A DNA stretch of 59,842 nt, the filler included, from Sphacelaria rigidula (Eukaryota), in assembly GCA_964200075.2 (NCBI GenBank). It is 4 parts of 4 records of this genome, joined end to end, with 100 filler letters (N's around TTAATTAATTAA, not from the genome) between each part and the next. Parts side by side here need not be neighbours in the genome. Positions count along the whole stretch, not along the records: positions 14,990 to 29,876 come from CAXNAA020002005.1; 3 more parts are not named here. One strand, written 5' to 3'. This document shows positions 4,564 through 45,023 of the stretch, one piece after another (the first letter of the stretch is position 1; each line of letters opens with the position of its first letter). Under the pieces are notes generated by a model that saw nothing but the letters and a program-made list of their open reading frames with translations, did not search any database and was not told where the DNA came from. Position numbers and translations under genes: made by a program.

Positions 4564-13355
<8,792 letters not shown>

Positions 13356-14814
13356 GTGACGAGTCTTTTTGCATCGGCGGTCTGTAGGCTGATATCCTCC
13401 GAGAATAATTTCAGCAATGACAGTAGGCATGCATCACGGAACTTGTCTCCGCAAGAATTGGGAATTCTGACGAACATTTGGGATACCCATTCGTATCAGC
13501 GACACAAACATTTCATTTTGCATTTTTTGCATTTTTGCACGTTTCCCCCCTCCCTCACTGTTTTCCATCCAACATACTCATATATCACCCATTTTCGTAA
13601 AGTTAGTGTATATTTTATGTTCTCACTTGGAGATTCACAATGGAAATATGTTGAAATTTCTTCAAATACAATCTTTGCCTTCAAAATCAAGATGTTGTGG
13701 GGTATTTGGCAATATATTTAATTTCCTTGGTTGTAAAGTTGTCCAGGCTCTCTCGGAAGGCAAGGGGAAAATGAGCCTGTAAGGACTGATTCATTTGTTT
13801 TGTGTATGAGAACGTGTTCTTGATATTTCACGTGAAGCATATAAAACCAACAAAAGAAGTAAGGAGCGCTACTGAACATCACAAATTTGCCGTATTGAGT
13901 TGCTTTCAAGATTGTGCCCGTGAAGTACGTCATTTGACACAAAGCAGATCTTGAAGCTTCTCGTATATATACAAACCGTATGTACAAGCAACGTGACGAG
14001 GATGTCTCCCATCGCTACTTATAGGATCGAGATGAAATATCGGACGTTACTTCATTGTTGAAAATGCGAGTCCCTGTAATATGTTTTTGTTGAGGAAATA
14101 GCAAAACAAGGCATTTCCGTGACCCTCCCAAATCATGTTTGCACCAAGAGTTTCGTCGAAAAAGCTGCAATCTTTTTCTTCAAGATTGAGGAAATTGAAC
14201 GCGTAAGGTCACAAGGTCCTTATTCGAATCACCAGGTCGACGCAAGGTGCTCGGTCTGCCGAGGTGTGGAGGAATAGCTGAGAACAGAGATCGATGATTT
14301 GTTTGGATGCCAGCAGCATAGTAGTTTTCTTGTGCCTTGGACCACGATTCCATCGCCTGACATGCTTGTTGAGCGTGCTGTACCGCGTCAACAGCAGAAC
14401 ATACGACTATTCCAAGTAAAGAGGAGATGGATTATGATCAAGCATGACACTTGGCTTTGTTCGGTTTTGTAGACCTTGTTGTTCGTTCATTCTCAGCGCG
14501 AGCCAGGCTCTCTGCTGATCGACAGTTGTTTGTACTCTTTGCTAATGCCGTGCGATGTGTAACTTTTGAGTGGCCAAAACACTGCGAAACGTCTTTTTGT
14601 TGTTGTCCCGAGATTACTTCTGGGCGTATTTTGAAGCCCTTAGCCCGCCCCCCCCAAATACGGATTCATATATCTGTTCGTTGGAAAACCCCCGAAGACG
14701 ACCATTATTTGATGTATGTGGTCTGATACGTGGGGCGCCGGACTACCGAAGGTTGAAAAGAAGAAATAACAACGTGCCTCAGAAGTTGAGTGATTTCCGC
14801 AACTTTACGCCCTC

Positions 14815-14889: not shown

Positions 14890-14989
14890 NNNNNNNNNNN
14901 NNNNNNNNNNNNNNNNNNNNNNNNNNNNNNNNNTTAATTAATTAANNNNNNNNNNNNNNNNNNNNNNNNNNNNNNNNNNNNNNNNNNNN
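14890..14989. other. Artificial contig linker (N44-TTAATTAATTAA-N44)
   Basis: Exactly 100 nt; the central 12-mer gives stop codons in all six frames. Confidence 0.98.
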
Positions 14990-15170
14990 TGGAGAGTATT
15001 CAGACCTCAGAGGTCACTGGAGCATCAGATGCCCTCCAGAGGATTCGTTTATACCCATTCCAGAGGGATGAAACACCTCTAGAGGGCATTTGAGCCTCCA
15101 GAGGGTCATTTACCCTCCAGAGAATGAAAATCACGATAGAGGATTTCCAAACAGGAGCCGAATGGTCGCG
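14990..15170 (+). repeat. Dispersed repeat rich in ctccagag; second copy at ~43488-43675
   Basis: agacctcaga(g/a)gtcactggagcatcagatgccctccagagg..atgaaaatc..agccgaatggtcgcg is shared by both copies. Confidence 0.8.
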
Positions 15171-15537
15171 TGTGAAGGTCTAGAACGTCCATATTTGAGG
15201 TTGCTGGCACCTCAGGGGCCACCCGTGTGCGCTCGCCGGCCTGGCCCCACCTAAGTTCAAGAATGAAGTTCGAAATATACTCTACATGAAAAGGGACTGG
15301 AAAGAGAGCCCGCGAGTGGTGTATGAGATAGCACATAATTTGGCGGAAAAATGAAAGATTGTGGAAGAAGTTGACGAACACCGCCGCCAGCAACCGCAAC
15401 TTAGGCAAAAGGGCGACTCATACGGTTCGAAAAAACTGACATCGCAGGCCGGTGCAGTGGCTGCGACGGGGTAGTGGCGGTTCTAGCTCGAAAAAGCGTC
15501 ACAGACCTGGTCCCAGCTACGCAGGTTGCTTTGAGGA

Positions 15538-16438
15538 TGGCGACAAGGATCACTAAAATAAGAATTGTAACAAACAGAGCACACCTGCGGCCACGGTGAG
15601 TGCGTCAGGTGGGCGAGTAAAGTTGCCGCCGCCGCCGCAGCAGCAGCAGCAGCAGCAGCAGCTGTAACAGGTCCATGGTCAGCGGGGGGGCAGTAAATGT
15701 CCTGCTCCCACACGGGCTGTTTCCCCAGGTGATGGAACGTAAGGGGTGCTAACAGTGCGGATAGCATGGTGCCGCCCCAGCCTACTGCTCCAGCTCCTGC
15801 AGCCTAACCCTCACTGCCGGCGGGACCGGCTCAAGAGCGGACGTCGCAGACAGTGCCGGTATGGCGGGGTCTGCACACCACTGAGGTTGCAGATTTACAG
15901 GCTGAGGGTGTGGGAGTTGACAGCAAACAGCGATGCTGCCGGGCGGACTTTTCTGTTCCCGGTTCCGCAGCCAAGAACGTTTGCCCTGTCACTGCGGTTT
16001 TGGATTCGGGGGCTGGCATCACTATCTTGTCTGTATATAGTGGCAGCCCAGTTGCAGGCAGTGTTCCCTGATGTGCCCGTTGTCACGAGCATGGCTCGTG
16101 CACACCCGGTGAAACTAGCCGATGCAATGTACGCAGTACGCAGTCGAGGACTTGTCCAGTGCGCACTGCTCTGCACACATATTGGACCCGTGTCATAATA
16201 CGGTTATGCCAGATGCCGATGATGTGGTGATCATCAGGAGCGGTACGCTGGAGGCCATGGGCATTGACGTGTAGAGTGGGCTGGATGCATGCGCACACTC
16301 GAGACACACGGTGGTGAGAGGTGTTGATACGCCTGAATCCCGAGAATGTAGGCGTGTGGGCACTGGGATTGAGGCGTTACAGGATCGAGGTATACAAGAG
16401 GAGCCTGTGGATCCCTCCATTCAGCGATTAATGTCTCA
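15538..16438 (+). pseudogene. Internally deleted Gypsy gag-protease relic
   Basis: MATR start like the gag at 25163 and 29583, a poly-Q tract (15638-15662), aspartic protease motif CPVTAVLDSGAG, then degenerate matches to the VMPGTDDVII and CRRV..EALQ segments of the 27091..28200 frame; frameshifts and stops present. Confidence 0.85.
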
Positions 16439-16722
16439 AGACTCCGGGCAACGTTGTTACCTTTATTCGGTACATGACTACAGTGGAGAAAATGCATAGC
16501 AGGCGTTTATAGGCTGCTTGATGGATAACGGGTCTGAGAGGATGATCGGCGGACTCTGTGATGTATGATGTATGCAATACGAGGTGAGCCGATCACTCTG
16601 GTTTTAACAATACTGCTATTTGTATGTACACTGTTTGAGTCTTGAAGTCTCTGGAGCCCGTGACAGGGAGGAAGCCTCTGTAACAGCACTGTCATCTTGT
16701 TCTGATTTCAAACAAGTCTATA
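16439..16722 (+). repeat. LTR type A, copy 1 (first 3 nt missing)
   Basis: Colinear with 16821-17104; starts agactccgggcaac, ends gtctata; followed by ATAAACGTTTAT. Confidence 0.85.
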
Positions 16723-16820
16723 ATAAACGTTTATTCAGGAAACTTGTCGTTCTGGATTGGGATTGTGACCGCAGCCCATAGTCTCTAAAGCGGGGGACGC
16801 TCACGTTGAAAAACAGGGGG

Positions 16821-17104
16821 TGTAGACTCCGGGCAACAATGTTACCGTGGTTGGTTACATGACTGCAGCGGATAAAATGCATAGCAGGCATTCAAAGGCT
16901 GCTTGAAGAATAACGGGTCTGGGAGTATGATCAGTGGACTCCGTGATGTATGTTGTTTGCATACAAGGTGCAAGATCACTTCAGGTTTTAACGAAGACTG
17001 CTGTTTGTATAACTGCTTGAGTCTTGAAGCCTCTGGAGCCTGTGACAGGGAGGAAGCCTCTGGATCAGCACTGTGACGTTATTCTGATTTTAAACAAGCC
17101 TACA
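16821..17104 (+). repeat. LTR type A, copy 2 (284 bp, TGTAG..CTACA)
   Basis: Inverted termini tgtag/ctaca; preceded by the purine tract gaaaaacaggggg; followed by ATAAACGTTTAT. Confidence 0.9.
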
Positions 17105-17902
17105 ATAAACGTTTATTCAGGAAACGTGTTATTTCTGGATCAGGGTTTTGAAGCCGCACCCCATAGTCACGTTGAAAAACAGGGGGCAGGAAGCGGCTGA
17201 GAGAGAGGCGCTGGTCATATAACCCGAGGCAACTGAAGGAAGACGACTTTCGGAAGAATGACAGCGCGCAGGGGGATGACAGGAGTAGAGCCGAGAAGAT
17301 CCTGAGGTAGTGCTAGCGTGCGCTTTGCTATCGGTTGATCCAGCTGGGACAAAAACGCGGCGCAAAAACTACATTAGACGGGAGAATTGCGAGAATAATG
17401 GCTCAAGGTTGGCCAGCCGCGTGCAAGAAGAAGAGTTCACGGACTTCAAATACATGGCGAGACCTGTGTGAGGAAGAGGCGCTGTGACCATTGTTGTTTG
17501 GTGGCCAAGCGCAACCCTAAACGTCCCGTACTACAGCCGCAGGTTCTCGAGCGAGAAATCAGACGACCTTTTACAGAAATACTCCTTGTATGCTTGAAAC
17601 TGCAGGGAGGTGTTATTCGCAAGGAGCTTGCCGTGCTCATGGTGAATCTATCTGCGCCAGTGACATGGCGGGAGATCGTTCAGATGATTCGCAGGGCTGT
17701 CTACTTGAAGGACAGGTGGATGCCGGGTTGGCAGAATTGCCACCGGAGCAGCGCGTAGCTGTGGACACGCCTTGCATGATCGAAACAACAGGGACGTGTG
17801 ACCCGCGTGAAGCGGATACGCAGAGCGAGCTGCAAGCTCGTGATGCTGTTAGCGATCACAATTCTGACGGCGACGACGAGCGTCGCGTGGTGTTGGGTGG
17901 TC

Positions 17903-18163
17903 TGTAGACTTCTGTCACCCAAGATCAGATTACCATGTGGACTCCTCCCATTACGGGCACATGGACTTCAGCAGCTTTAGTTATTCATGAATTAACCCTC
18001 AGCATAGTACAGGAGAACAGGACCATAGCCTCTCTCCACCAGAGTAGCAAAACTAGGCCTGCTCGTCATGGAGGTTACCCATCAACAGAGTCCGGCAATC
18101 AGACCCGCAACTCCACTTACAAATGTCCCAAACCTTAGGTAACAATGATGGCTAGAGTCTACA
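17903..18163 (-). repeat. LTR type C, intact (261 bp)
   Basis: Perfect 8-bp inverted termini; homologous to 24414-24710 plus 26573-26656 and more distantly to LTR A. Confidence 0.9.
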
Positions 18164-19359
18164 GCACCCCCAGAGCTCTCTACTACCAACAAGTAGTTAC
18201 ATCAGAGCTTGACAAACTCAGAAATCATTGGTGCTTGATAGTCGTTTTCCGCAAAGAATAGCAATATCTCCCGCTGCTTTCGACAACAGCTCCATACAAG
18301 CTTGCCCCACTTCCGAACAACTCGCAAGAGATCCTAAGAAAATGTCGCCCATCATGAACATGCAATCACGCTACTTGCACCACTTCGAGTTACAAAGCGA
18401 TAGGTAGCGCCGAATTCTCAAATCTTCGCCCAAAACAAGTCTCTTGACTTGTGAACCTGCCTGCTTCCATCGGCCCAGCTACATGTAGCACCCCCACAGT
18501 GCCGCTGAGCATGCACCAAACGGTATACTCGCACCGTCAAACCAATACGATAAATCCTTTGCCCCCACAGATGCTTGAGCATCAGCGAAAGCTCGTGCTT
18601 CAGTCGTTTTTTCAGAGGAAACGAGAGGCGAAACGGTAACAGCCATACAGTCCCGCACAGCAACACCTCCCGATCGCATCACATCCTCCTCAAGCATCCG
18701 ACCGTGCAGCGGCATAGACACCTCGATCAACGCCGCCAAGCACGACAAACCTGTCCCTGTAAATAGCAGTGCATACGATCACTCCAAAATACGCAACGCT
18801 CGACGTCGCTGTAGGAATTATGACCGTTAATAATATCACAAGCCGGAAGCTCGCTCTGCCTACCCGCTTCACGCGGGTCACACCCCCCTGCTGCTTCCAG
18901 CATGCACGGCATGTCCACAGCGCCACGCTGCTCCGGCGGCAACTCCGCCAATGGTGCATCCAGCTCTCCTTCAAGTAGACACCCCTGCGAATCACCTCTG
19001 CGAATCATCTGAACCATCTCCCGCCATTTCGTCGGCACACACAGATTTGCCATGAGCATGGCGAGTCCAAAACTCGCTTTGCTCGTCCGCATGACGCGAA
19101 TAACACCCCCTGCAGCTTCGAGCATGCAAGGCGTGTCTTCAGCAACACGCTGGTCATCGAACTCAAGTCTATCGCGTGGATCTAAAGCCGTCTACTTGGA
19201 ATACACCTCCCCTTGAAGCAGAGATTCCTGCGGAGCTGTACTTGCTCCCGCCGTGTTTTAGGAGCATTGCACCTATGACAGCCTCGGCTCACACATCGCC
19301 GACAGCCTCGGGGCACTGCATTTTTGTTGGGTGCGCTATTTGGCTCTTCAGGGGCTGCT

Positions 19360-19610
19360 GCAGCCGCAGCGCGCCGGCCAGCCGCTGAGGACAGTTCCTT
19401 TGTGGTGGGACAAGATTTGTGAGGCTTTTTCGATCCAGAACCGCCACTACCCGCTGCGGCGGCCGCAGCCGCGGCGCGCCGGCCAGCCGCTGAGGACAGT
19501 TTCTGTGTGGTGGGACAAGGTTTGTGAGGCTTTTTCGAGTTCGAAGCGCTACTACCCGGTGCAGCGGCCGCAGCCCCGGCCCGCCGGCCAGCCGCTGACG
19601 ACAGTTTCTA
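19360..19610 (-). repeat. 105-bp tandem repeat (about 2.4 units) at the gag position of a degenerate element
   Basis: ccggccagccgctga recurs at 19374, 19479 and 19584. Confidence 0.9.
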
Positions 19611-20179
19611 TGTGCTTGGCACAATCAGGTGCTTGATCCTGAGCCTCGACATTTCAAATTTTTAAAAAATGTAAAAAACATTCTGCTGCCGCCCAAGCAC
19701 AGAAACTGCAGCTCTGCCCGTACACCAAGACGAGCGTTGTCACCACACTATGGCGACCACAGCATCTCTTTCCACGCAGCTCTCACCACGTTTTGAAGTC
19801 CTCCGTAGACTCCTCTTCTTGAACGCGGCTGGCCAACCTTGAACTAGCCCCCTTGCAATTCTCCCGGCTGAGGTAGGAATTACGCCGTGTTTTTTGGCAG
19901 GCCTCCGGGTAACCCAGCTGGTGATCAATCGATTCCAAACCGCACCCTCGCACTACCTCAGAGCCTTCTCGGCTCTACTCCTGCCATCCTCCTGTGCGCT
20001 GCCATCCTTCCAAAAGGCTCCTTCCCTTCAGTTGTCTTCGCTTATATAACCAGCGCCTCTCTTTCCGCCGCTTCCTTCCCCCCTGTTTTTCAACGTGAGC
20101 GTCCCCCGTTTTACAGACTGTGGGGTGCGGCTTCGAAAATCCTTTCCGAAAACGACAAGTTTCCTGAATGAACGCTTGA

Positions 20180-20462
20180 TGTGAACCTGGCTGCAATCAC
20201 GACAAGGTCACAGTGCTGCTCCAGAGGCTTCCTCCCAGACACGGGCTCCAGAGACTTCAAGACTTCAAGCAGTTGTACAAACGGCAGTCTTCGTTAAGCA
20301 GAAGTAACCTTGCACCTCGTGTGCAAACATCATACATCACGGAGTCCATCGATCATACTCTCAGACCCGTTATCCATCAATCAGACTATAAACGCCTGCT
20401 ATGCATTCTTTCCACTGCAGTCATGTTCCGAATCAAGGTAGCGATGTTGCCCGGAGTCTACA
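20180..20462 (-). repeat. LTR type A, copy 3; 5' LTR of a nested minus-strand element whose body runs to ~18450
   Basis: Reverse complement starts tgtagactccgggcaac and ends ..ttcaca; it is followed by the same leader as 17105-17490. Confidence 0.88.
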
Positions 20463-22439
20463 GACTCTTCATCGGAACGAAACCGGAATTGTCAGCGAAC
20501 GTCGCATTCCAGAGCATTCGTGACTCATCGTCCCTCTTATCCGAGACAAGGTACGTTTCAACATACAAAACGCACTTTTTGTACGTTCAACACCGGCGCA
20601 ACGGAGTGCAACAGCCGAATGATACATCATCCTCACGCTGAAAGGAAGAAAGCACCCAACACGTCTTAAACGCGCCTGGCCTCTTGCTTCTGCAACACTG
20701 TCGAAAACGTATGCAAGCGTATGCCTCCCCGCCGCCAAAGCTTCAACGCTTCAACTTGCCATCGTTTTATCTAGACAATCAAAGGAAAGCTATGACTCAA
20801 ACCGCTATTCAAGTCATGCATACTATTCCAACGACGGCGAACGGACCTCGACCTCCGCCATCATTGATCACCACTGGTGACCCGTTTTCGAACTCTTGTT
20901 TTCGAGGAAATCCCAGACATTTCTACATCTCCTTTGGATCTTGGACCGTCATATCCCATCTCTGTATCTGCCAAAATATAGAAATAATGATTTCCTCGAC
21001 ACTCTTGCAGGCCACCTACACCAGCTCTTCGAACAAATGGATGCATCATCCACATGCTCCTTCTGACATGAACAAAAAACCAACCACGTGCTCGTTCAAA
21101 CACGTGACAATCCATACATAAACGTGCCACGGTCAAAGATCATTGATGCATGCGCACATAATGTCTTAATCTTCAACCACCGGAAGCACTCGCGTCATAC
21201 CTACTCACGTACGACGAGCCTACGCGTTTCGTATATTTCAGCTCATTTTCGCGCTAACAGCAAGCATCACGGTCTCCTACAGTCAGTACGACCCTATGCA
21301 TTTCGTGGTTTATTGCTCATTTTCACGCTAACGGAAGCAATTCATGTATCGTGCAGTCAATACGTGCAAACCGCACAAATATTATTTGACCGTGTTCCTG
21401 CGCGAACAAGGTTATACGAGGTTCTATTGATTTAGCATACAGCAGTATATTGAAAACTGCCCCACCCTAGGTCGTCACCAGATACCATTCACATCAGTAC
21501 CACTCGAGCAAAACTTCGTAGATGCCTGCCAAAATTCCACTCAAGATATGAAAATCCGCACATACATGCCAATATTTCACTCAGCATATGCAATGCCGCC
21601 TTCCTCGTAGAAAACACCATGCATCGTCCGTACCGACCAGATCAGCACAAAACACACATGCTAAATATCCACGTGAACGCCAGAGTTTTACCCTGCACAC
21701 GCGATACAATCATACTCGCTCAACGAACATGTTTCACGCGCAAACATGACCACAAACCACACAATAACAAACTGCGATCATTCTTAAAACGATTTGCGAA
21801 TACCAGTCATGATGTGTTTGCTCATTCTCACCAAGCACTCAATCACCTCAGCACTTGCTCCTCAACATCAGCACCGTACGCGGCGCTCACCACAGCAGCA
21901 AATACCTTACGCAATGTCTTATTTGTAGTTCTCCAGTCCGCTCCTGAGAAGCAGCAGGACTTGAACCACGACCTCGTGGACAGCGTAGAGCATCCTTTCC
22001 TCTCGGACACTCGCTTCTCGCACCTTCAATCTAGCTACACCTTGCACCCCCATGGTGTAGCTCAACACGCCTCTAAAAGGTATATTCGCACCGCCAAACC
22101 AATGCGACAAATCCTCCGCCCCAACAGATGCTTGCGCATTCACGAACGTTAGTTCTTCAGTCGCTTTTCTAGAGAAAACAAGAGGCAAAACGGGAACATC
22201 CATACAGTCCCTCACAGCAACACCTCCCGATCGTATCACGCCATCCTCCTCCGGTACCTGACCGTACAGCAGCAAGGACACCGCAGTCAACGCCGCCAAA
22301 TACGACAAACCTGTCCATGCATAGAGCAGTGCACACGACCACCCCAACACCACGCGACGCTCGTCGTCGCCGTCGGAATCGTGATCGCTAACAGCATCAC
22401 GAGCTTGCAGCTCGCTCTGTGTACCTGCTTCACGCGGGT

Positions 22440-22930
22440 CACACGCCCCTGTTTTTTCGATCATGCAAGGCGTGTCCACAGCTACGCGCTGGCCCGGCGG
22501 CAATTCCGCCAACCCAGCATCCACCTGTCCTTCAAGCAGACACCCCTACGAATCATGAAAACGATCTCCCGCCATGTCACTGGCGCAGATAGAGTCACCA
22601 TGAGTACGGCAAGCTCCTTGCTCACCCTACTCGCTCGCCATACGCAAATAACACCCCCCTGCAGTTTCAAGCAAGCAAGGAGTATCTCCAGCTACGCGCT
22701 GGTCCGGCGGCAATTCTGCCAACCCGGCATCCATCCACCTATCCTCCAAGCACACACCCCTGCGAATCACCTGGACGATCTCCCGCCCTGTCACTGGCGC
22801 AGATAGAGTCACCATGAGCACGGCAGGCTCCTTGCTCACTCTGCTTGCTCGCAATACGCGAAAAACACCCCCCTGCATTTTCAAGCATGCAAGGAGTATC
22901 TCCAGCTACGCGCTGGTCCGGCGGCAACGA
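22440..22930 (-). repeat. ~210-bp tandem repeat (about 70 codons, PPDQRVAGDTPCMLE..DAGLAEL), about 2.5 units
   Basis: cagctacgcgctgg recurs at 22479, 22689 and 22903; related units at ~17585-17830 (+) and ~18850-19155 (-). Confidence 0.85.
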
Positions 22931-23169
22931 GCAACTGGGGCCTCCGCCCACCAGTACTTGCTCATTGGCCCATGTAGGCCTCGCCCTCTCAACATTCAAC
23001 ATTGCCAACAGCAGCAGCAGCATCACCTATACTCGATAAAGCCACCACATCCTGCTCAACGCACTCCTGGACTGCAACGGCGGCAGCTGAGCTGCCTGCA
23101 GTCTGCTCGAGCTGCGTGACATATTCACCCTCTCCAGCAGCAGTACCAGCAGCATCCAAACCAATGCTT

Positions 23170-23590
23170 ACCGTGGTACTGTCGGCGGGCGCGCTCTCAT
23201 ACCTACCCCTTTTGACAGACACGTGCTGCGTCTCCTTCCCGCTCGGCACAGTGGGAACAGCTGCCCTGTATCGTGGTTTAAGACGCGCCCTACGGACTGC
23301 ACATTCAGCGGGTGCACTATCGCGCCTATCCTCTCGGGCAGACACATGCTTCTCGGCTTTAACAGTGCAAGCATCTGCCCTTTATCGTTGTTTCAAACGC
23401 GCAGCACCTACTGCACGTTCAGCGGGAGCGCCGTCGTGCCTGTCCCCTCGGGCAGACACATGTTTCTCTGCTGACACAGGGCAAGCAGCTGCCCTGTATC
23501 GTTGTTTCAAACGCGCAGCATCTACTGCACGTTCGGCGGGTGCGCTGTCGTGCCTGCCCCCTCGGGCAGACACATGTTTCTCGGCTGTTA
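23170..23590 (-). repeat. 114-bp tandem repeat (38 codons, KHVSARGGRHDSAPAERAVDAARLKQRYRAAACPVSAE), about 4 units
   Basis: cagacac unit anchors at 23566, 23452, 23338 and 23215. Confidence 0.9.
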
Positions 23591-23915
23591 CAATGCAATG
23601 CGCCCCACCGGACGGCGCATGCTTGCGCAACGCGAAAAGCAACTGCTCGTCCTCAACATCATAATCGTCTTTCAAGAACGTGTCACACAGGCATTTCGCG
23701 ATATGTTTCGGCATGAGCTCAGAAACTGCTGCCACCTTGAAGAGGTTTGTCGACCGCGCGTTCACCTGATCTACATCTCGCAAATATTGCTTGTATTTGC
23801 GTAAAACATCGGTCGATTTCTCGCTCGAAGCCTTGCGGCCGTAGTACGGCATCTCCAGCGCCAGTACAAGAACAACACGACCATCGACGATAAGATATTC
23901 CTGAGCCTCATCCAT
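23382..23915 (-). pseudogene. Gag N-terminal domain fused in frame to 38-aa repeats
   Basis: LEMPYYGRKASSEKSTDVLRKYKQY..VSELMPKHIAKCL..LRKHA aligns with LKAPEYGRHCSENASRRFYQKY..TELVPRHIRACL..LGRHA of the 28207..29583 gag. Confidence 0.75.
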
Positions 23916-24444
23916 TTCAGTCAGCACTCCGGACCGCCTTTTTGAAAAACGAAGTTGCCTCCCACTCACAGGAACAACACTCTCTCCTCACACCAAGACG
24001 CGCTGAACCAACTTACAACAAAAATGGTCACAGCGCCTCTTCCCCGCGTAGGTCTCACCACGTGTTTGAAGTCCTTAGATTCCTCTTCTTGAACGCGGCT
24101 AGCCAACCTCGAATTAGCCCTCTCGCAATTCTCCCGTCTTCGAGTAATAAGTGCGCCGCGCTTTTTGGAACGCTCACGGGCTTGCCAGCTGTCGATGTAC
24201 CCCCCGCACCTCACGCAAGAGCGATACCACAACCCGCCCTAGCACTGCCTCAGAACCTCCTCGGCTCTACTTCTTACACTCTTCGCGACGTTAACACGCC
24301 TTGAGCTGGTCTTGTTTGCTGCTAACTGATCAGGCCTGCAAATTTCCCTATCATAAAGTGTCAGCTGCTTTTCAGCGGATCTACCGCCATCAGTGGACTT
24401 AATGAACGTTCATTGTAGACTTCTGTCACTCAAGATCAGATTGC

Positions 24445-24580
24445 CAATCCTGGCTCCCCTGTCAATCTGCTCGAAAACACATGGGAAACTCCCGGCTCCC
24501 TCTCAACCTGTTCGAAAACATATGGGGAATCCTGGATCCCTGTCAACCTGCTCGAAAACATATGGGAAATCCTGGCTCCT
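24445..24580. repeat. ~41-bp minisatellite (about 3 units) expanded inside the 5' LTR C
   Basis: tcctggctcccctgtcaacctgctcgaaaacatatgggaaa-like unit; absent from the sister LTR at 17903-18163. Confidence 0.85.
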
Positions 24581-24710
24581 ACCATCACGGGCACATGGAC
24601 TTCAGCAGCTTTAGTTATTCATATATCAAGCCTCACCAATGTGCAGGAAAACAGGAACACAGCCTCTCTCCATCAGAGTAGCAAAACCGGGCCTACTCGT
24701 CGTGGAGGTC

Positions 24711-26572
24711 TGTAGAGTAGTCCACCTACAGTACACGTACGAGCAGGTTGATGATGATATTCAAGTGGAATAATCTGCTATAGGCGTTTTCTATTGGTTG
24801 ACGGACTTGCGGGTCTGATCGGCAGACTATATGGATTTGAACATCACATGCTTCACGCATGTGATTACTTCCGACAACGAAGGCTTTGTGTTTATGAATA
24901 ACAACTGTCTTGAAGTCTCCAGGCCCTAGTGAGGGAGGAAGCCCTTGGAGCAATCTTGTGACCTTGTTCTGAGTCCAGGAGGGCTCTATAATATACGTTT
25001 ATTAAGAGGAACCCGCTGGTTTCTGGAAGAGGTTTTTCAGCTGTGGACAGCTGCGGAGAAATTATATCAGACTTTGTACACACGAGTGTGCACCCTGTAA
25101 AGTGAGGGAGCTCGCTGACAAAGGAGAGACGGCTAGATTCGCTGGAACTGTTGCGTGCAGGTATGGCAACGCGCAAGAAAGTGGGTGATGGCGATGCAGG
25201 CGAAGAGGTGAAGTTGAAGTGTACTGAGTTTATGCCTGCAGGATCGCTGAAAGCCCCAGAGTACGGACGGCATTGTAGCGAAAATGCGTCCCGACGTTTT
25301 TATCAGAAATACGTCGAGTATAAAGAGGCGGTCAAAATGAACAACAAAGGACGTAGTATGCAGGCCGTCTTACTGACTTTTACTGAACTGGTGCCGAAGC
25401 ACATCCGTGCGTGTTTGTCACGCACGATTTTTGACGGATCCGTGCTTGACGAAGACGATCTCAAGGAGGCACTAGGCCGACACGCGAAATGTTGGGATGA
25501 TGAAGAGATTGATCCTTCAGTTGCTGCTGTTGGTCTGCGGAAAGCGTTGGCGGCCCGCAACGAGCAAACTGCAATGGGAAGAGTAGAAGGGCAGTGGGGG
25601 TGTCCTGGAGTAATGTTTCGCGGAGAATGTTAGCGCTGAGCGTGCGTTCCGCGATGATGCAGATTTCAAACCAGGACCTGCTCAAATCATAACTCGGGAA
25701 ATGTTGAATGGACTGACCCCCCCCGAATTCAAAACTGAAGTTCTCAACATGTTGAACATGAAGGGGGCGTGGAAGAAGGACCCTGGGCTTGTGTTCAACA
25801 CGGCTCGGGAAGCAGGGGAGGAGGGAAGACGGTGGAAGCGGCGGATAAGCAGCACCATCAGCAGCCGCAGCTGAAACAAGGAAGTGGCAGCGGGATCTCC
25901 GGAAGCAAGCGCCAACCGAATGGTGGGAAAACGGCGAGCAGTGGAAATGGGATTGCCAGTTTCGGGAAAACCCGCAAACCAGGCCCGAACTATGCAGGAT
26001 GTTTCATATGTGGAGACAAGGGTCATTTCCGGAAGGATTGCAAGCAGCAAGGCCAGGCTGGTGCTCCACAACATACTACAGGTGGGCAGACGAAGGCTGG
26101 CGACAAGCAGACACAACAACAGCAGCTATCGCAGGGCCCTGGACAGGTGCCTCGCGGAGGGGGCACGAGTCCCGTCCCTACGAGGGCTGTCTTTTCAGCC
26201 GATGGACAAAGTGCTCCCAGCGGGGGGGCGACGTTGCCACCAGAACCGGTCGTTTGTACTGGTTGCGTGCAACAGACCATCTCATCGCATTCTTTCTCGG
26301 GTTCGAACTCTGCGGCGGTGCCAGCATGGAGATCGCTCAAAGCGGGTGAGGTGTCAGGTTTTCAATCTGAGGCTCTACAAGTAGATCACAAGGAAACGTG
26401 GTGTGTTGCCGACTTATCTGTCCCGAGTGCAGGGGCAAAGGGTGTTTGTCCGGTCACGGCTATTTTAGACTCGGTATCTGGACTTACGACCATGTCAGCT
26501 GGTGTAGCGGCGAAATTGCAAGCCATGGTTCCATAAGTCCAAGTGGTGAGATCAATGGTTGATGAACAGCTG
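24711..26572 (+). mobile_element. 3'-truncated Gypsy element B1: LTR B (24711-24990) and frameshifted gag (ATG 25163) with CCHC knuckle and protease
   Basis: LTR TGTAGAG..CTCTATA; CFICGDKGHFRKDC zinc knuckle; AILDSVSG protease motif; TAA at 26534-26536; inserted into LTR C. Confidence 0.9.
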
Positions 26573-27439
26573 ACCATCACAGAGTCCGGCAAGCAGACCT
26601 GCAACTCCACCTACAAATCTCCCCACCTTAGGTAACAATGATGGCTAGAGTGTACAGGTCGTGTGCATCGCTGTATGCATAGACAGCTTTGGCATATTTG
26701 GCGGCGATGGCGGAGGTGTCTCCACCATTGCGCCGTTGGATGTTTGGGGAGGATAGCGTACCAACATCAGGAGGTGTCGCTGTTCGGGACTGTGTAGCTG
26801 TTCCCATTTCGCCTCTCGTTTCCTTTGTAAAACTGACTGAAGCACAGGTGTTCAGTACCACCCAAGTATCTGTGAAGGCAGATAGCTTGCTTGATGCATT
26901 GGTTCGGCGGTGAGAATATACCACTTGAAGGCGAGCTGAACGGCTCCACGAGGGTGGGAGCTGTAGCTGGACCCATGGCGCGAGGAGCGAGTGTTCGAGT
27001 GGAAACGCTGCTCTACGCTGTGCATGGGGTTGTGGTTCGAGTGCTGCTGTTTCTCAGGAGCGGACTGGAGAACTACAAAGAAGACATTGGCTAAGGTAAT
27101 TGCTGCTGTGGTGAGCGCCGCGTACGGTGCTGATGTTGAGGAGCAAGTGCTGAGGTGATTGAGTGCTTGTTGAGAATGAGCAAACACATCATGACTGGTA
27201 TTCGCAAATCGTTTCGAGAGTGGTTGCAGCTTATTATTGTGTGGTTTGTGGTCATGTTTGCGCAAGAAACTTGTTCGTTGAGCGAGTATGATCGTATCGC
27301 GTGTGCAGGGTAAAACTGTGGCGTACACGTGGATATTTGGCATGTGTGTTTTATGCTGATCTGGTCGGTACGGACGATGCATGGTGTTTGCTGCGAGGGA
27401 GGCGGCATTGCATGTGCTGAGTAAAATGATGGCATGCAT

Positions 27440-29787
27440 TCATCCGACGAAATCGCTCCTCCGCCTTGTATGCATTCATCCAGCGGAAACAGAACTTCTC
27501 GGGCGTTGCAATCGCTGCTCCCGCCCACCAATGTTGCGATGCAGCGTGCCAACCACGCCATCTTGACCGGAAAGTACGCCCTCGGCCGAGCCTTTGCCTC
27601 CTCAGCAGCGGGTTTGAATTTCATCTTCAGGGGCTCGACGCGATCAGGCAGATAACCATGCAGCACTCGCCTAAAAATGCTCCCTCTGTTCCGTACAGGC
27701 TCACGAATTCGACCCACGTCGCTACCCGATATGCCGTTACCCGCGGCGGCTTGTACTGCCTCCTCCGGCGCAACATCAAGCTCAGCAAGCTCCTGTTCCG
27801 GGGATATGCTCATCGCCGGACTTTTCGACAACAACCGGTCGACTGAGGGATAATCCGGCTCCGCCCAACCTCCTGGTTGCTGTAAAGCGTCAACCGCGGT
27901 CCTGACACGCCGACAGTCCGTAAAATCAGGCGCGTTCACACCTCGCACCGAAGTGTTTCTTCCACGTGCACAGGCACCTAAGCTATTGCACACGTCAATG
28001 CCCAGCACCTCCAGCGTAGGGCTCCCCATGATGATCACATCATCGGTACCCGGCATGACCGCATATGAACATGGGTCCAGCACAACCGGTCCCCAGCTGG
28101 TGTGTAAAGCGATGCGGACAGGGCAAGTTTTCTGCTTCACGCGCTCAACATCGCCATTCGCCAATTTCACCAACTGTTCACCAGTCATCGATCTCACCAC
28201 TTGGACTTATGGAACCATGGCTTGCAATTTCGCCGCTACACCAGCTGACATGGTCGTAAGTCCAGATACCGAGTCTAAAATAGCCGTGACCGGACAAACA
28301 CCCTTTGCCCCTGCACTCGGGACAGACAAGTCGGCAAGACACCACCTTTCTTTGCGATTCACTTGCAGACCCTCAGATTGAAAACCTGACACCTCACCCG
28401 CTTTGAGCGATCTCCATGCTGGCACCGCCGCAGAGTTCGAACCCGGGAACGAGTGCGATGAGATGGTTCGCTGCACGCCACCAACAGAAACGACCGGTTC
28501 TGGTGACAACGTCGCCCCCCCGCTGGGAGCACTTTGTCCATCGGCTGAAAAGACAGCCCTCATAGGGGCGGGACTCGTACCCCCTCCGCGAGGCACCTGT
28601 CCAGGGCCCTGCGATAGCTGCTGTTGTTGCTGCTGCGTGTCGTCGGCCTTCGACTGCCCACCTGTAGTATGTTGTGGAGCAGTAGCTTGGCTTTGCTGCT
28701 TACAATTCTTCACGAAGGGGCCCTTGTCTCCACATGAGAAACAACCGGCACAGCTTGGGCCTGGTTTGCGGGTTTTTCCGGAACTGGTAGTCCCATTTCC
28801 ACTGCTCGCCGTTTTACCAGCATTTGGTTGGCGCTTGCTCCCGGAAGTCCCGTTGCCACTCCTTTGTTTCAGCTGCAGCTGTTGACGGCTCTGCTTATCC
28901 GCCGCTTCCACCGTCTTCCATGCCTCCCCTGCTTCCCGAGCCGTGTTCAACACAAGCCCAGGGTCCTCCTCCCACCCCCCTTTCATGTTCAACATGTTGA
29001 GAACTTCAGTTTTGAATTCGGGGGGGGGGGTCAGTACATTCAACATTTCCCGAGTTATGATTTGAGCAGGTCCTGGTTTGAAACCTGCATTATCGCGGAA
29101 CGCACGCTCAGCGCTAGTATTCTCCGCAAAACATTCCTCCAGGACACCCCACTGCCCTTCTACTCTCCCCATCGCAGTTTGCTCGTTGCGGGCCGCCAAC
29201 GTTTTCCGCAGACCAACAGCAGCAACTGAAGGATCAATCTCTTCATCCTCCCAACATTTCGCGTGTCGGCCTAGTGCCTCCTTGACATCATCTTCGTCAA
29301 GCACGGATCCGTCGAAAATCGCGCGTGACAAACACGCACGGATGTGCCTCGGCACCAGTTCAGTAACAGTCGATAAGACGGCCTGTATGCTACGTACTTT
29401 GTTGTTCATTTTGACCGCCTCGTCGTACTCGATGTATTTCTGATAAAAACGTCGGGACGCATTTTCGCTACAATGCCGTCCGTACTCTGGGGCTTTCAGC
29501 GATGCTGCAGGCATAAGCTCAGTAAACTTAAACTTCACCTCTTCGCCTGCATCGCCACCATCCACTTTCTTGCGCGTTGCCATAGCTGTACGCAACAGTT
29601 CCAGCCAACCTAGCCGTCTCTCCGTTGCCAGCAAGCTCCCTAACGTTACAGTGTGCAGACTACTCTGTTCAAATTTTGATATAATTTCTCCGCAGCTGTC
29701 CACAGCTGGAAAACCTCTTCCAAAACCAGCGGGTTCCTTTTCATAAACGTATATTATAGAGCCCTCCTGGACTCAGAACAAAGTCAG
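27440..29787 (-). mobile_element. Gypsy element B2: LTR B remnant (29755-29787), gag-protease ORF (29583 to 28207), pol continuing past a TAA and lost near the start of RT
   Basis: Closely similar to B1; knuckle CFSCGDKGPFVKNC (His replaced by Pro); AILDSVSG; downstream frame VKLANG..CPVRIALHTSWGPV..VEPLKMKFKP..KARPRAYFPVK; no RT YxDD motif or integrase core seen. Confidence 0.9.
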
Positions 29788-29876
29788 ATACTTTCTACGA
29801 TAGCCCCCCCCCAGAAAAGTGCATGGTTTTGGGGGGCAAAATCTTCACGTAAATCGAAATGGGGAAAGCCGAGCAC

Positions 29877-29976
29877 NNNNNNNNNNNNNNNNNNNNNNNN
29901 NNNNNNNNNNNNNNNNNNNNTTAATTAATTAANNNNNNNNNNNNNNNNNNNNNNNNNNNNNNNNNNNNNNNNNNNN
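29877..29976. other. Artificial contig linker (N44-TTAATTAATTAA-N44)
   Basis: Identical to the linker at 14890. Confidence 0.98.
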
Positions 29977-30104: not shown

Positions 30105-33100
30105 GACGCACATACGACGCATACGACGCGCTTCGAATTACTCTACGTTAAAGGGAGGGAGGGGCGTACTCATTTGTTGCTTGCCGTAGCCGTTTAACCA
30201 TTGACCACGCATCCATTTCGAGACGCTGCACCGTTTTTACTCCTAATACAGACACCTTCGACATCCCGGCGATCATTACGTTTCTTCCTTACCTTACACA
30301 AAAACCTTTTACACATCTTTTCCCCGTCCTATTTCGCCGTCTCTGGCCACCATATATCTCCTAGTACAACCATCGTTTTCTCCCTACTGTCTAATGCATC
30401 GAACGATTCCATGCCACCTTCGTTCACGCCCCGCATTTCCCCCTCTGGCACGACCCGCTGCTCCTTGTCTAGTTTACATTCTGCCACTATATGACCTATT
30501 GCTTTCTATCGCTTTGCCACAGGGACAGTTCTGTCCATCTACTTCCTCCTCCTTTCGACGACTGGTATAAATCTTTCTCCTTTCTGGCAGGTCCAGGTTC
30601 CCCACCAGAAATCGCAGTTTCATATTTTTGGCAGCGTCCATCGGGCCATGCAAATATGCTTTTACCCCTATCCCCTCTCTCACCACCCCGCATATATCCA
30701 GGTGTTTTTCTTCGTCTACTTTGCGTCTCAACGCTCCTTTTCCTCTTATTTCGATCATATCTCTCACTTTTGCCTTGTACCCCGCGTCTTTATCTATGGA
30801 CAATATTTCGTCTTGGTTTCCTCCTATCTCCTCCCATATTTTCTCGGTTTCTTCGTCCCACCTCACTCCAGCCTTCCCTTTCGCACGTTTCTTCCATACA
30901 GCCCTATCAACTACAGCTGGCAATCTCTTCCTCTGTATGTTCCTTACGCTATATTGCGATCGCAATTTCCTCATATCTCTGTTTTGAGTGAGTACATTCC
31001 CAACTCTGCTCTCGATGCTGTATTACTCGTCGTTTTCGAGCATCCAATTATTGTTCTTAGCCGTTGCCATCTGTACTGCTTCCAACTTCTCCACCAACTT
31101 CACGTTCCCATCTCATACGTCTCCTGCATATCTCAGCTTTGGTACGATCACGTTCATCGGGATACATCACTTGACTCTAGTGTCTAGGCGCCGGTCTCTG
31201 AGGATCACGTGAATTCTTCCTATCTCTACCTTACCCTTTTCTATTACTTTCTTCATGTGTGAATCCCTACAACAGTTTGTTGAGATCTCGACGTCAAGGT
31301 ATGTATGCTGGTTTACGATCGGCAGCTCCTCTTCTCCCAACTTCCACTTGAACTGTCCGGGATTTTTCTTGTCTTCGTTACAGACGAATACCACGCAATT
31401 GTAAACGTTCGCTGTCACTCTCGATTCCTAGTGTATCCTCCCGCCTTGTCTATTTGTGTCTGTAATCCTTGTAGTGCGTGAGAGGACCGCTTGCTTAGAG
31501 GACCGCAGCGGAATTTGAACATCCCTATGGTTAGGGTTAGGGGTGGTGTTGGGCTTAGTGTTGGGGTTAGGGCCAAGGGCGTGATCCCCGCGGGGACTGG
31601 CTCGATTGATTTAGAAAAATGTCGATTCTAAGGTGTTTCGAACTACCATGCAGTGTTCTAAGCACGCGGTCTCCTCACGCAGTACAATCCTTTCGCTGTT
31701 TCAGAAGCCCCCACAAAATCATCCGCAAACGTCAATCCTGATACCATATCTTCACCCACCTTGACCCCTTGATTTGCTGCTTTTATTGCTATTATCAAGT
31801 CGTTAATAAAGACCTTGAACATAGTGGGTGATAACGTACATCCTTGTGCAACTCCTTGTAAAAGCTCAAAATATTTCGATATTTCCCCGTCTAGCATCAT
31901 GACACTTTTGGCACATTCTGTCATTTTCTCTACCATTCTCCACATCTTTCCTCTGATCTCAGCTTCCCACAACTTCTTCCACAACTCATTTCTCCATACT
32001 GTGTCATGAACCTTTTGCACGTCCAGAAAGAAACAGTACGTTGTCAGCCCGGTGTCTTTCCTACCCTGAATAATCTTACTTAGCGTGTACACACATGGTT
32101 TACCCAACTACCGTTTGGTCTAAATCCTGCTTGTCCCTTCCTGATTTTCTATTCCTTTTCTACTATCGTTCCTACTCTATCGTTCAGAATCTTACAGGAT
32201 GTTTACCCTACCGTGCTCAGTAGCGTTATCCCTCTATAGTTTCCTGGGCCAGCCTTGCCTCGTTTTTTGAAAATATTGACGACTACTCTTTCTCTCCATC
32301 TCTTGAGTGTTGACTCCTTTTCCCAGATCCAGTTATACAGCATAACTATCATGGTAATCTCTCCCCCCCCCGTACTCGAGAAATTTCATTCATTATTCCG
32401 TCTGCCCCTACCGCCTTCCTGTTCTTGAGTTTAGCTACGCACTCCTTTACTTCATCTCTGGTTTTATTTCTCTGCAATTCTTTCGAGCCTCTATCCTCCC
32501 GTTTCGATGTCTCTACATTTGCCTCTGCCCACGCATTGATTTCTTCTTCGAATTCCATGTCGAACTCCGTGGTTGTTTCTGGTGTTCTTAGTTTACGGTA
32601 GTGCTCTACTAGCACTTCTCTCTTTCCCTTGGAAGTACTGGCCATTTTGCCGTGCCGTGCCCGGAGCGTAGCCATCCCCTTGTCTATCTTTCGTGCCTCG
32701 TTTCTCGTTATCCCTGTTATCCCTGCCCACACTTGCTTCATTCCGCCAACGAAGTCTACATTTGTCTTATTCACTACACCTCCCCAAGCTTCCTTCTTTT
32801 TCTGCTGTACCATCTTTTTTACTTCCTTCCGAGCTTCAGCATACTCCTTTTATCCTACTGTAGTTTTGCTCGACATCCATCTCGCGTGGGCCTCTCTCCT
32901 TCCTCTGACAGTCTCTTTCCCTTCCCCATCCCACCGTTTTACTGCTCTGTTGCATGCGATCAGTTTCCTCCCTACGATTTTACTCGCTGTGTTCTTGCCC
33001 ATCTTCTCCCATCCTTCTTTGAGCTTCGCTCCTGCCCGATTTCTTTTCATTTCGGTATCCACTGAGCCTACGCGTTCCAACCGCTCGGAAAATATCACTG

Positions 33101-44861: not shown

Positions 44862-44961
44862 NNNNNNNNNNNNNNNNNNNNNNNNNNNNNNNNNNNNNNN
44901 NNNNNTTAATTAATTAANNNNNNNNNNNNNNNNNNNNNNNNNNNNNNNNNNNNNNNNNNNN
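44862..44961. other. Artificial contig linker (N44-TTAATTAATTAA-N44)
   Basis: Identical to the linker at 14890. Confidence 0.98.
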
Positions 44962-45023
44962 AGACGACCAACTAGACTACTGACCAGTCAGCGCTGACTG
45001 GTCAGTAGTCTAGTTGGTTGTCT
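44962..45023. repeat. 62-bp palindrome with one mismatch at the start of contig 4
   Basis: Two 31-nt arms centred on AGC|GCT with no loop. Confidence 0.95.

What the first reader, a model, noticed from the sequence alone, without database searches (positions are those of the whole stretch)
16722..16735. Gypsy family with a self-complementary palindrome in place of a tRNA primer-binding site
Seen: wherever an LTR of this family is followed by its own leader, the next bases are a palindrome rather than a TGG-type PBS. The copies read AATAAAC|GTTTATT (16722, 17104), AATGAAC|GTTCATT (24401-24414), AATATAC|GTTTATT (24990, one mismatch; similar at 29743-29754) and a decayed ATCAAGCGTTCATT (20167-20180). 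Types A and C differ by a compensatory pair (A-T to G-C), so symmetry rather than a fixed tRNA complement appears to be conserved. Established: most LTR elements prime from a tRNA, and Tf1-group chromoviruses self-prime by pairing the transcript 5' end with the PBS. Inference: this lineage may prime without tRNA by hairpin or RNA-dimer pairing, or use the palindrome as a dimerisation signal. I do not know of a described case, but cannot rule one out.
Basis: partly seen in the sequence, partly recalled or inferred. Interest (0 to 1): 0.72.

Follow-up and report, generated by a model that had tools for sequence, protein, structure and literature searches.

The report
Palindrome at retrotransposon primer site
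In a nest of old LTR retrotransposons, the spot just after the 5' LTR where a tRNA primer normally binds holds a conserved 14-base palindrome instead, much like a case already published for fungal GalEa elements whose mechanism is still unknown.

Summary

I could fix the LTR boundary. One element, B (17903-26656, minus strand), is flanked by a 4-bp duplication, GGTC. An uninterrupted copy of its target lies at about 22343. The LTRs read TGTAG...CTACA, and the palindrome starts with the last A of the 5' LTR. The first TGG is 24-32 nt downstream in the B, C and A2 leaders. The 3' LTR of B is followed by target DNA, not by the palindrome.

Between subfamilies the 14-mer is 11-13 of 14 identical, while the flanks are 35-61% identical. 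It is therefore a conserved island at the place where the minus-strand primer must anneal.

Evidence that the symmetry itself is selected is thin. There is one compensatory pair, and 150 of 500 shuffles do as well. "Gypsy" is not shown: only gag-CCHC and a weak protease signal were found, and no RT.

A published precedent exists. Fungal GalEa Copia elements carry a palindrome that includes the final A of the 5' LTR (PMC5445492).

My best reading is a tRNA-free primer site that works by self-complementary pairing of element RNAs. This is a new variant of a known but unexplained kind.

The parts
16432..16722 (+). LTR copy A1 (TGTC...CTATA). Its start abuts a gag-PR remnant at 15232-16463.
   Evidence: Alignment with A2 and A3.
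16722..16735 (+). Palindrome AATAAACGTTTATT after LTR A1. Its first A is the last base of the LTR.
16808..16820 (+). Purine tract GAAAAACAGGGGG in the A1 leader, joined directly to the start of LTR A2. The same tract lies in the A2 leader at 17174-17186.
   Evidence: The A3 leader has it too.
16821..17104 (+). LTR copy A2 (TGTAG...CTACA), the 5' LTR of an A-type element. Its internal part runs 17118-17902 and resumes at 26661.
17104..17117 (+). Palindrome AATAAACGTTTATT after LTR A2.
17899..17902 (.). Target-site duplication GGTC, left copy, of element B.
17903..18163 (-). 3' LTR of element B. In element orientation it ends GTCTACA and is followed by target DNA, not by the palindrome.
18164..18180 (-). 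Polypurine-like tract of element B. On the minus strand it reads GAGAGCTCTGGGGGTGC, directly before the 3' LTR.
   Evidence: read directly.
20167..20180 (-). Decayed site ATCAAGCGTTCATT after LTR copy A3 (20180-20462, minus strand).
24401..24414 (-). Palindrome AATGAACGTTCATT after the 5' LTR of element B. Base 24414 is the last LTR base.
24414..24710 (-). 5' LTR of element B, 3' part. The LTR continues at 26573-26656 and is split by the C1 fragment.
   Evidence: The joint 24710 to 26573 is seen in contigs of DNA runs X1 (2 contigs) and X4 (1 contig).
24711..24990 (+). LTR of the C1 fragment (TGTAGAG...CTCTATA).
24990..25003 (+). Near-palindrome AATATACGTTTATT (6 of 7 pairs) after LTR C1. The gag ATG is at 25163.
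26657..26660 (.). Target-site duplication GGTC, right copy, of element B.
29742..29755 (-). Near-palindrome AATATACGTTTATG (5 of 7 pairs) after the LTR remnant of C2.
27526..29583 (-). C2 gag-CCHC-protease coding region, 72% identical to P0003 over 688 aa.

Best explanation
The 14-nt palindrome is the minus-strand primer site of this LTR-element lineage (subfamilies A, B and C). It takes the place of a tRNA-type PBS.

In the canonical LTR replication scheme (established knowledge), the end of U5 is set by where the primer's 3' end anneals. The primer must therefore pair with the bases that abut the LTR end, and those bases are the palindrome.

A mature tRNA 3' end cannot be the primer, because there is no TGG next to the LTR. 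The sequence is its own complement. The simplest primer is therefore another copy of the same sequence: the palindromes of two element RNAs pair, and a cut just 3' of the palindrome in one RNA gives a 3'-OH that is extended through U5-R of the other. This would be tRNA-free self-priming in trans, coupled to RNA dimerisation.

Shown: the position, the LTR boundary, the absence of TGG, and the conserved island. Inferred: that self-pairing is what matters, and every step of the priming chemistry.
For: - LTR ends are fixed by the TSD GGTC and an empty-site copy. The 5' LTR of B is followed by ATGAACGTTCATT, while its 3' LTR is followed by target DNA.
- The palindrome starts with the last LTR base in 6 of 6 junctions.
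- The first TGG is 24-32 nt downstream in the B, C and A2 leaders (read directly).
- Between subfamilies the 14-mer is 11-13 of 14 identical. Flanks are 18-25 of 40-41 upstream and 15-25 of 40-43 downstream (A1 and A2 versus B and C1, and B versus C1).
- A and B differ at exactly two positions, which are symmetric partners, changed A-T to G-C.
- Predicted homodimer energy is -11.9 kcal/mol for A and -16.5 for B.
- The central CG is kept in 6 of 6 copies.
- Rfam finds nothing in the segment at E up to 1.
- Precedent: fungal GalEa elements lack a PBS and carry a palindrome that includes the final A of the 5' LTR. The two common forms quoted in the paper differ at two symmetric positions of the 10-nt palindrome (my reading; the paper's own numbering names nucleotides 3 and/or 6 for the rarer derivatives) (PMC5445492, section 10 and discussion passages).
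Against: - Covariation is not significant: 1 pair with a change on both sides, in 1 of 6 sequences, and 150 of 500 shuffles reach it.
- Family C, which has the most intact gag, has an uncompensated T-T mismatch in both copies. Its dimer energies are only -5.3 and -5.7 kcal/mol.
- A3 has lost the symmetry (-4.9 kcal/mol).
- All copies here are old. The two LTRs of B are 87-94% alike. No young copy was examined.
- There are only 6 junctions, all from one 15-kb stretch. No further DNA copies could be fetched.
- No cut site, primer or transcript end was observed.
- A palindromic site would also let strong-stop DNA ends fold back on themselves. The model does not address this.
Confidence: 0.42

Rival explanations
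1. The site pairs with a host small RNA, for instance a 5' tRNA fragment ending in the anticodon loop. On this reading the palindromic look is incidental. Read as the complement of such a fragment, the A site gives ...ACG-UU-UAU-3' and the B site ...ACG-UU-CAU-3'. That is a pyrimidine-U followed by an Ile-type or Met-type anticodon.
For: Half-tRNA primers are described for about 2% of plant elements, and they are precisely 1/2tRNA-Met and 1/2tRNA-Ile (PMC6317226, passages). The right half, CGTT[T/C]AT, is the best kept part of the site. The anticodon reading of A and B is my own reading of the window sequence.
Against: - A tRNA gives no reason for a 7+7 perfect palindrome, nor for A and B to differ at symmetric partner positions.
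- The C form would put A at the invariant U33 position.
- Beyond the supposed anticodon stem, the A form lacks the D-loop GG (my reading against general tRNA knowledge, recalled).
- The described half-tRNA primers are cut in the anticodon stem, not after the anticodon.
- The only tRNA in the window (His) has at most 5 nt of complement.
- The organism's tRNA set was not available.
Confidence: 0.18
2. Tf1-type self-priming in cis. The first bases of the element's own transcript, inside the 5' LTR, fold back onto the site and are cut to make the primer.
For: In A1, AGGCGTTTAT at LTR position 70 pairs with +1 to +10 right next to the LTR end (8 Watson-Crick and 2 G-U pairs). 30 of 1000 shuffled LTRs do as well. 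The core AGGCGTTT is also present in A3 and C1. Self-priming is predicted for 12% of plant elements.
Against: In register next to the LTR end, A2, A3, B and C1 are at chance: 308, 205, 867 and 941 of 1000 shuffles respectively. The motif is mutated in A2 and absent from the 3' LTR of B. Any sequence resembling one half of a palindrome pairs with the other half, so the A1 match may be a by-product. The transcript start is unknown.
Confidence: 0.1
3. The palindrome is kept for another reason, such as a dimerisation or packaging signal or a binding site for a dimeric DNA-binding protein (ACGT core). It only happens to abut the LTR.
For: Palindromes serve RNA dimerisation in retroviruses and probably in Ty1 (PMC4974528, passages). 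The ACGT core is invariant. That ACGT cores are typical of some dimeric factors is recalled, not tested.
Against: Some primer must still anneal at the LTR end, and no other candidate site is there. Known dimerisation palindromes sit in hairpin loops in addition to a PBS (discussion of PMC5445492). No consistent hairpin encloses the site.
Confidence: 0.15

Closest known systems
Conserved Hairpin Site (CHSeq1/CHSeq2) of fungal GalEa Ty1/Copia retrotransposons (Donnart et al. 2017, PMC5445492)
   Same: No tRNA-type PBS. A conserved palindrome lies right after the 5' LTR and is palindromic only when the final A of the LTR is counted. Variants differ at symmetric positions. LTRs begin TGT and end CA and are of similar size. 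The mechanism is unknown.
   Different: Here the palindrome is 14 nt, not 10, and has a different sequence. No second inverse-complementary box was found 12-41 nt downstream. The TSD is 4 bp, not 5. The host is an alga-associated organism, not a fungus. The coding part shows gag-CCHC and protease, with no integrase signature seen after the protease, so it is probably not a Copia.
Tf1/sushi-type self-priming (Ty3/Gypsy chromoviruses; also predicted for the plant Tcn1 and TAR lineages)
   Same: No tRNA primer. The element's own RNA would supply the primer, with a cut by the element's enzyme (inferred here).
   Different: Tf1 needs the transcript 5' end to be complementary to the site. Here that is seen in 1 of 5 junctions tested. 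The Tf1 site is not palindromic (stated in PMC5445492).
Skipper elements of dictyostelids (polypyrimidine stretch in place of TGG; PMC5006619)
   Same: An LTR element without a TGG site and without a complement in the left LTR. An unconventional priming mode is proposed.
   Different: The Skipper site is a polypyrimidine run, not a palindrome.
Bivalve TRIM elements with inverted repeats or palindromes in the inner domain (PMC6934838)
   Same: No clear PBS. Inverted repeats or palindromes lie near the 5' repeat, and the authors compare them with the GalEa site.
   Different: Those are miniature non-coding elements with 9-10-bp inverted repeats 25 bp apart, not an unspaced palindrome abutting the LTR.

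Membership tests
LTR retrotransposon (general) | Direct long terminal repeats ending TG...CA, flanked by a short target-site duplication | tested here: met
   Element B has LTRs at 17903-18163 and 24414-24710 plus 26573-26656, with termini TGTAGAC...GTCTACA (the right LTR reads GTGTACA on the + strand). The TSD is GGTC. An empty-site copy lies at about 22343.
LTR retrotransposon (general) | Polypurine tract before the 3' LTR | tested here: met
   For B, the minus strand of 18164-18180 reads GAGAGCTCTGGGGGTGC directly before the 3' LTR. At the A1/A2 junction, GAAAAACAGGGGG lies directly before the LTR start.
LTR retrotransposon (general) | tRNA-type PBS (TGG...) next to the 5' LTR | tested here: not met
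   No TGG lies next to the LTR end in A, B or C; the first is 24-32 nt downstream in the B, C and A2 leaders.
Ty3/Gypsy | Reverse transcriptase and RNase H followed by integrase (order PR-RT-RH-IN) | tested here: inconclusive
   No RVT, RNase H or integrase Pfam hit was found in the 42 ORFs of 100 aa or more in this segment, nor in 15 of the 150 listed relatives of P0003. The stretch after the protease looks to me like an RT N-terminus, but this is unsupported by any model (at E up to 1).
Ty3/Gypsy | Gag with a CCHC knuckle and a retropepsin | tested here: inconclusive
   zf-CCHC passes its cut-off (23.1 and 22.6 bits against 20.8). The protease models fall below theirs (20.3 against 28.2; 18.9 against 24.3). 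The Atlas's nearest clusters are retropepsins at 0.93, which is a lead only. These features do not separate Gypsy from other LTR superfamilies.
GalEa-type Conserved Hairpin Site | Palindrome right after the 5' LTR that includes the final A of the LTR | tested here: met
   6 of 6 junctions; 3 are perfect.
GalEa-type Conserved Hairpin Site | CHSeq1 consensus CTGATCAGT or CTAATTAGT | tested here: not met
   The sequences here are ATAAACGTTTATT, ATGAACGTTCATT and ATATACGTTTATT.
GalEa-type Conserved Hairpin Site | Second box (CHSeq2), inverse complementary, 12-41 bp downstream | tested here: not met
   I took the best duplex of the palindrome with the next 71 nt. Equal or better duplexes arose in 6-86% of 300 shuffles per copy: A1 0.52, A2 0.12, A3 0.06, B 0.86, C1 0.84, C2 0.72.
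GalEa-type Conserved Hairpin Site | Copia GalEa polyprotein; 5-bp TSD | tested here: not met
   The TSD is 4 bp. The polyprotein clade could not be tested because no RT or integrase was found.
Tf1/sushi self-priming | Site complementary to the first ~11 nt of the transcript, inside the 5' LTR | tested here: inconclusive
   A1 has a 10-nt run (30 of 1000 shuffles as good). A2, A3, B and C1 are at chance. The transcript start is not known.
Half-tRNA primed elements | Site complementary to a tRNA 5' half | not testable with these tools
   No genome is held. There is one tRNA in the window (His), with at most 5 nt of complement.

The most novel reading that the evidence does not exclude
A palindromic primer site lets two co-packaged element RNAs pair with, and prime, each other. 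This would be dimer-coupled, tRNA-free initiation of reverse transcription. Its presence both here and in fungal GalEa elements would make it a further general priming mode of LTR elements, beside tRNA (whole or half) priming and Tf1-type cis self-priming.
Probability: 0.25. Interest if true: 0.8.

Novelty: new variant of a known kind. Interest (0 to 1): 0.55.

Why it matters
How LTR elements without a tRNA site start reverse transcription is an open question. The GalEa authors state that no described model fits their palindrome.

A second, unrelated-looking lineage in a different kind of host shows the same geometry: a palindrome that begins with the last A of the LTR, with variants that differ at symmetric positions. 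This argues that the geometry is functional rather than a quirk of one clade. It also gives a second system in which to test the idea.

In practice, tools that require a tRNA-complementary PBS will miss such elements or file them as lacking a PBS. Read depth suggests these families are very abundant in this genome.

Tried and rejected
- **Poly(A) signal inside the LTR.** I first thought AATAAA might be a poly(A) signal and that the true LTR end lay about 85 nt further on, because the A1/A2 repeat unit is 385 bp. I rejected this. The TSD and empty site of element B put the LTR end at CTACA, and the 3' LTR of B lacks the palindrome.
- **A displaced PBS.** TGG-containing stretches lie 24-32 nt downstream. 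I rejected them because they are not conserved between subfamilies, and a primer placed there would lengthen the LTR.
- **A common hairpin around the site.** RNAalifold gives -0.44 kcal/mol and no stem at the palindrome. Single folds place it at a hairpin tip in C1 and partly in A2, but not in A1, A3, B or C2.
- **More copies from outside.**
  - No genome is held.
  - The metagenome pattern scan gave 16 loci, none with BLAST similarity to the window.
  - Viral contigs gave no relative.
  - Genome contigs gave 0 matches.
- **Earlier notes of this scan.** Nothing was found.
- **Leader peptides of protein relatives.** I looked at 8 proteins with N-terminal extensions. None reaches the palindrome.
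- **Sequencing runs.**
  - No RNA holder is listed. Four runs are only guessed to be RNA.
  - The laid contigs are short unitigs.
  - None of the 40 best-supported letter differences shown lies in a palindrome, and 615 more were not shown. Nothing can therefore be said on expression or on variation at the site.
I did not repeat it.
- **ORFs of 45-99 aa.** I listed 151 of them but did not scan them.
- **Rfam.** 0 matches at E up to 1 in the segment.

Full report
**What the window is.** The 59,842 bases are four stretches of about 14.9 kb joined by spacers of N44-TTAATTAATTAA-N44 (N runs at 14890-14989, 29877-29976 and 44862-44961). The finding lies in the second stretch, 14990-29876. No genome is held for it. 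Public runs that hold parts of it are labelled with a coded organism and 'algae metagenome'. BLAST of the LTRs and leaders against the whole window finds copies only in this second stretch.

**The observation.** All six 14-mers are present.
- AATAAACGTTTATT at 16722 and 17104.
- AATGAACGTTCATT at 24401.
- AATATACGTTTATT at 24990.
- The reverse complement of 29742-29755, AATATACGTTTATG.
- The reverse complement of 20167-20180, ATCAAGCGTTCATT.

With up to 2 mismatches there are 5 matches against 0.15 expected. These are family copies, so the count says nothing about independent origin. A perfect 14-nt palindrome is also not rare. The window has 31, of which 23 are (AT)n runs and 8 are not, while block shuffles give a mean of 3.4. 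The case therefore rests on position and conservation.

**Where the LTR ends.** My first suspicion was that AATAAA was a poly(A) signal inside a longer LTR. The nesting of the elements settles this.
- At 17903 a repeat starts with TGTAGAC inside the internal region of an A-type element. The same repeat ends with GTGTACA at 26656.
- Both ends are flanked by GGTC (17899-17902 and 26657-26660).
- A second copy of the interrupted sequence, on the minus strand around 22343, runs straight through a single GGTC.

So 17903-26656 is one inserted element, B, with a 4-bp target duplication. Its gag-like start lies on the minus strand, so B is a minus-strand element. Its 3' LTR is 17903-18163. Its 5' LTR is 24414-24710 plus 26573-26656, split by a 1,862-bp fragment of another element, C1. 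Contigs of two DNA runs join 24710 directly to 26573.

In element orientation both LTRs of B end AGAAGTCTACA. The 5' LTR is followed by ATGAACGTTCATTAAG. The 3' LTR is followed by target DNA. The palindrome is therefore outside the LTR except for its first base, which is the LTR's final A.

The other junctions have the same geometry:
- A1: ...CTATA|ATAAACG
- A2: ...CTACA|ATAAACG
- A3: ...TCACA|TCAAGCG
- C1 and C2: ...CTATA|ATATACG

The first TGG is 24-32 nt further on in the B, C and A2 leaders, in stretches that are not conserved between subfamilies.

**What this position means.** In the canonical replication scheme of LTR elements (established knowledge), the outer end of U5 is set by where the 3' end of the minus-strand primer anneals. 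A primer placed further downstream would make the LTR longer. Whatever primes these elements must therefore pair with the bases abutting CTACA, which are the palindrome.

**Is the site constrained?** Between subfamilies the 14-mer is 11-13 of 14 identical. The 40 bases before it are 18-25 of 40-41 identical and the 43 after it are 15-25 of 40-43 (A1 and A2 versus B and C1, and B versus C1). A1 and A2 are identical over the 14-mer while their flanks are 32 of 40 and 29 of 41. The site is a conserved island, as a primer site should be.

**Is the symmetry itself constrained?** Here the evidence is thin.
- Counting the seven pairs over six copies gives 36 of 42 cells paired.
- One pair has a change on both sides (A-U to G-C, in B only).
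- 150 of 500 shuffles reach the same values.
- A and B differ at exactly two positions, which are partners. I estimate this at a few per cent by chance, but it is one event noticed after the fact.
- Family C has the most intact gag: a 521-codon open frame that is 72% identical to its only close database relative, P0003. It carries an uncompensated T-T mismatch in both copies.
- A3 has lost four pairs.
- Predicted homodimer energies are -11.9 kcal/mol (A), -16.5 (B), -5.3 and -5.7 (C1, C2) and -4.9 (A3).

All copies here are old; the two LTRs of B are 87-94% alike.

**Rival primers.**
1. *A mature tRNA 3' end.* This is excluded because there is no TGG.
2. *A tRNA fragment.*
   - Read as the complement of a 5' fragment ending at the anticodon, the A and B sites give UU-UAU and UU-CAU. 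This recalls the half-tRNA-Ile and half-tRNA-Met primers reported for some plant Copia lineages (PMC6317226, passages).
   - Against it: those primers are cut in the anticodon stem, the C form would break the invariant U33, and a tRNA gives no reason for a perfect 7+7 palindrome.
   - The organism's tRNAs were not available. The one tRNA in the window (His) has at most 5 nt of complement.
3. *Tf1-type cis self-priming.*
   - In A1 the LTR holds AGGCGTTTAT at position 70, which pairs with +1 to +10. 30 of 1000 shuffled LTRs do as well.
   - In A2, A3, B and C1 the best in-register runs are at chance: 308, 205, 867 and 941 of 1000.
4. *A GalEa-like second box downstream.* None was found. No common hairpin is predicted, and Rfam finds nothing.

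**What kind of element.** The C copies and P0003 encode a gag with a CCHC knuckle that passes the Pfam cut-off. They also have a retropepsin-like stretch with a D-S-G motif, which scores below the cut-offs. The Atlas's nearest clusters are retropepsins, which is a lead only. No RT, RNase H or integrase model matches any of the following:
- the 42 ORFs of 100 aa or more in this stretch, part of the 149 scanned window-wide;
- P0002 and P0003;
- 15 of the 150 listed relatives, chosen for length or for covering the region after the protease. There are 620 relatives at E up to 0.001.

'Gypsy' is therefore not shown. The copies may be non-autonomous or truncated. The A and B internal regions share only a weak gag N-terminus with C: 37% over 82 aa.

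**Comparison with what is known.** Four literature searches turned up a close precedent. Donnart et al. 2017 (PMC5445492; I read section 10 and passages of the discussion) report that fungal GalEa Copia elements have no PBS.
- An inverse-complementary second box follows 12-41 bp downstream.
- The authors state that no described model fits.

The two common forms differ at two symmetric positions of the 10-nt palindrome (my reading of the quoted sequences). This is the same pattern as A versus B here.

A paper on bivalve TRIMs notes similar inverted repeats (PMC6934838, passages). Skipper elements show another non-TGG site (PMC5006619, passage).

The present case shares the geometry of the GalEa site. 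It differs in sequence, in length (14 against 10 nt), in lacking the second box, in TSD length (4 against 5 bp) and in host, and probably in element superfamily. I did not open the GalEa supplementary files, which may hold closer variants.

**Verdict.**
The palindrome does occupy the primer site, and a tRNA 3' end cannot be the primer. That symmetry is selected, and how priming works, remain inferences from six old copies.
- My preferred mechanism is pairing of the palindromes of two element RNAs, with a cut 3' of the palindrome giving the primer. I put this at about 0.4.
- The kind of feature is already in print for fungi, so I rate this a new variant of a known but unexplained kind, of moderate interest.

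Noticed in passing
14890-14989, 29877-29976, 44862-44961: The window is a composite. Four stretches of about 14.9 kb are joined by N44-TTAATTAATTAA-N44 spacers, so features must not be read across these joints.
   Followed up: yes
16432-17186: The arrangement is LTR (A1), 98 nt of leader ending in GAAAAACAGGGGG, then LTR (A2) with its own leader that carries the same tract. It looks like a tandem with a shared LTR whose first unit lost everything between the leader tract and the 3' polypurine tract. Contigs of two DNA runs join 16753 to 17143, a form with one unit only.
   Followed up: partly
44962-45023: A 62-nt unspaced inverted repeat (31-nt arms, one mismatch) lies at the very start of the fourth stretch, centred on AGTCAGCGCTGACT.
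   Followed up: no
21454-22803 (+) and 26855-27439 (-): The A/B-type internal region has its long open frames (232, 217 and 195 aa) on the strand opposite to the element's LTR-gag direction. None has a Pfam hit.
   Followed up: no
24446-24579; 23247-23598; 19353-19562; 22518-22927: There are tandem duplications inside element B: units of roughly 40-80 bp inside its 5' LTR (absent from the 3' LTR), three 114-bp units, two 105-bp units, and a 214-bp duplication in the internal region.
   Followed up: no
31661-32107 (-): This is the only reverse-transcriptase hit of the window (RVT_1, 50.2 bits). It lies in the third stretch and has no LTR of families A, B or C nearby.
   Followed up: no
38856-38930 (-): A tRNA-His (GTG) call by ARAGORN, the only tRNA in the window.
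   Followed up: partly
17764-18445 and 24243-24583: Summed contig depth over the B LTR and the adjoining sequence is in the range 110,000-190,000 in run X1, against about 65-120 for contigs that match the window exactly. These repeats are very abundant in the source genome.
   Followed up: no
6186-6506 and 13197-13718 (+): Two ORFs have protein-kinase domain matches below the Pfam cut-off. They are probably exons of a kinase gene in the first stretch.
   Followed up: no
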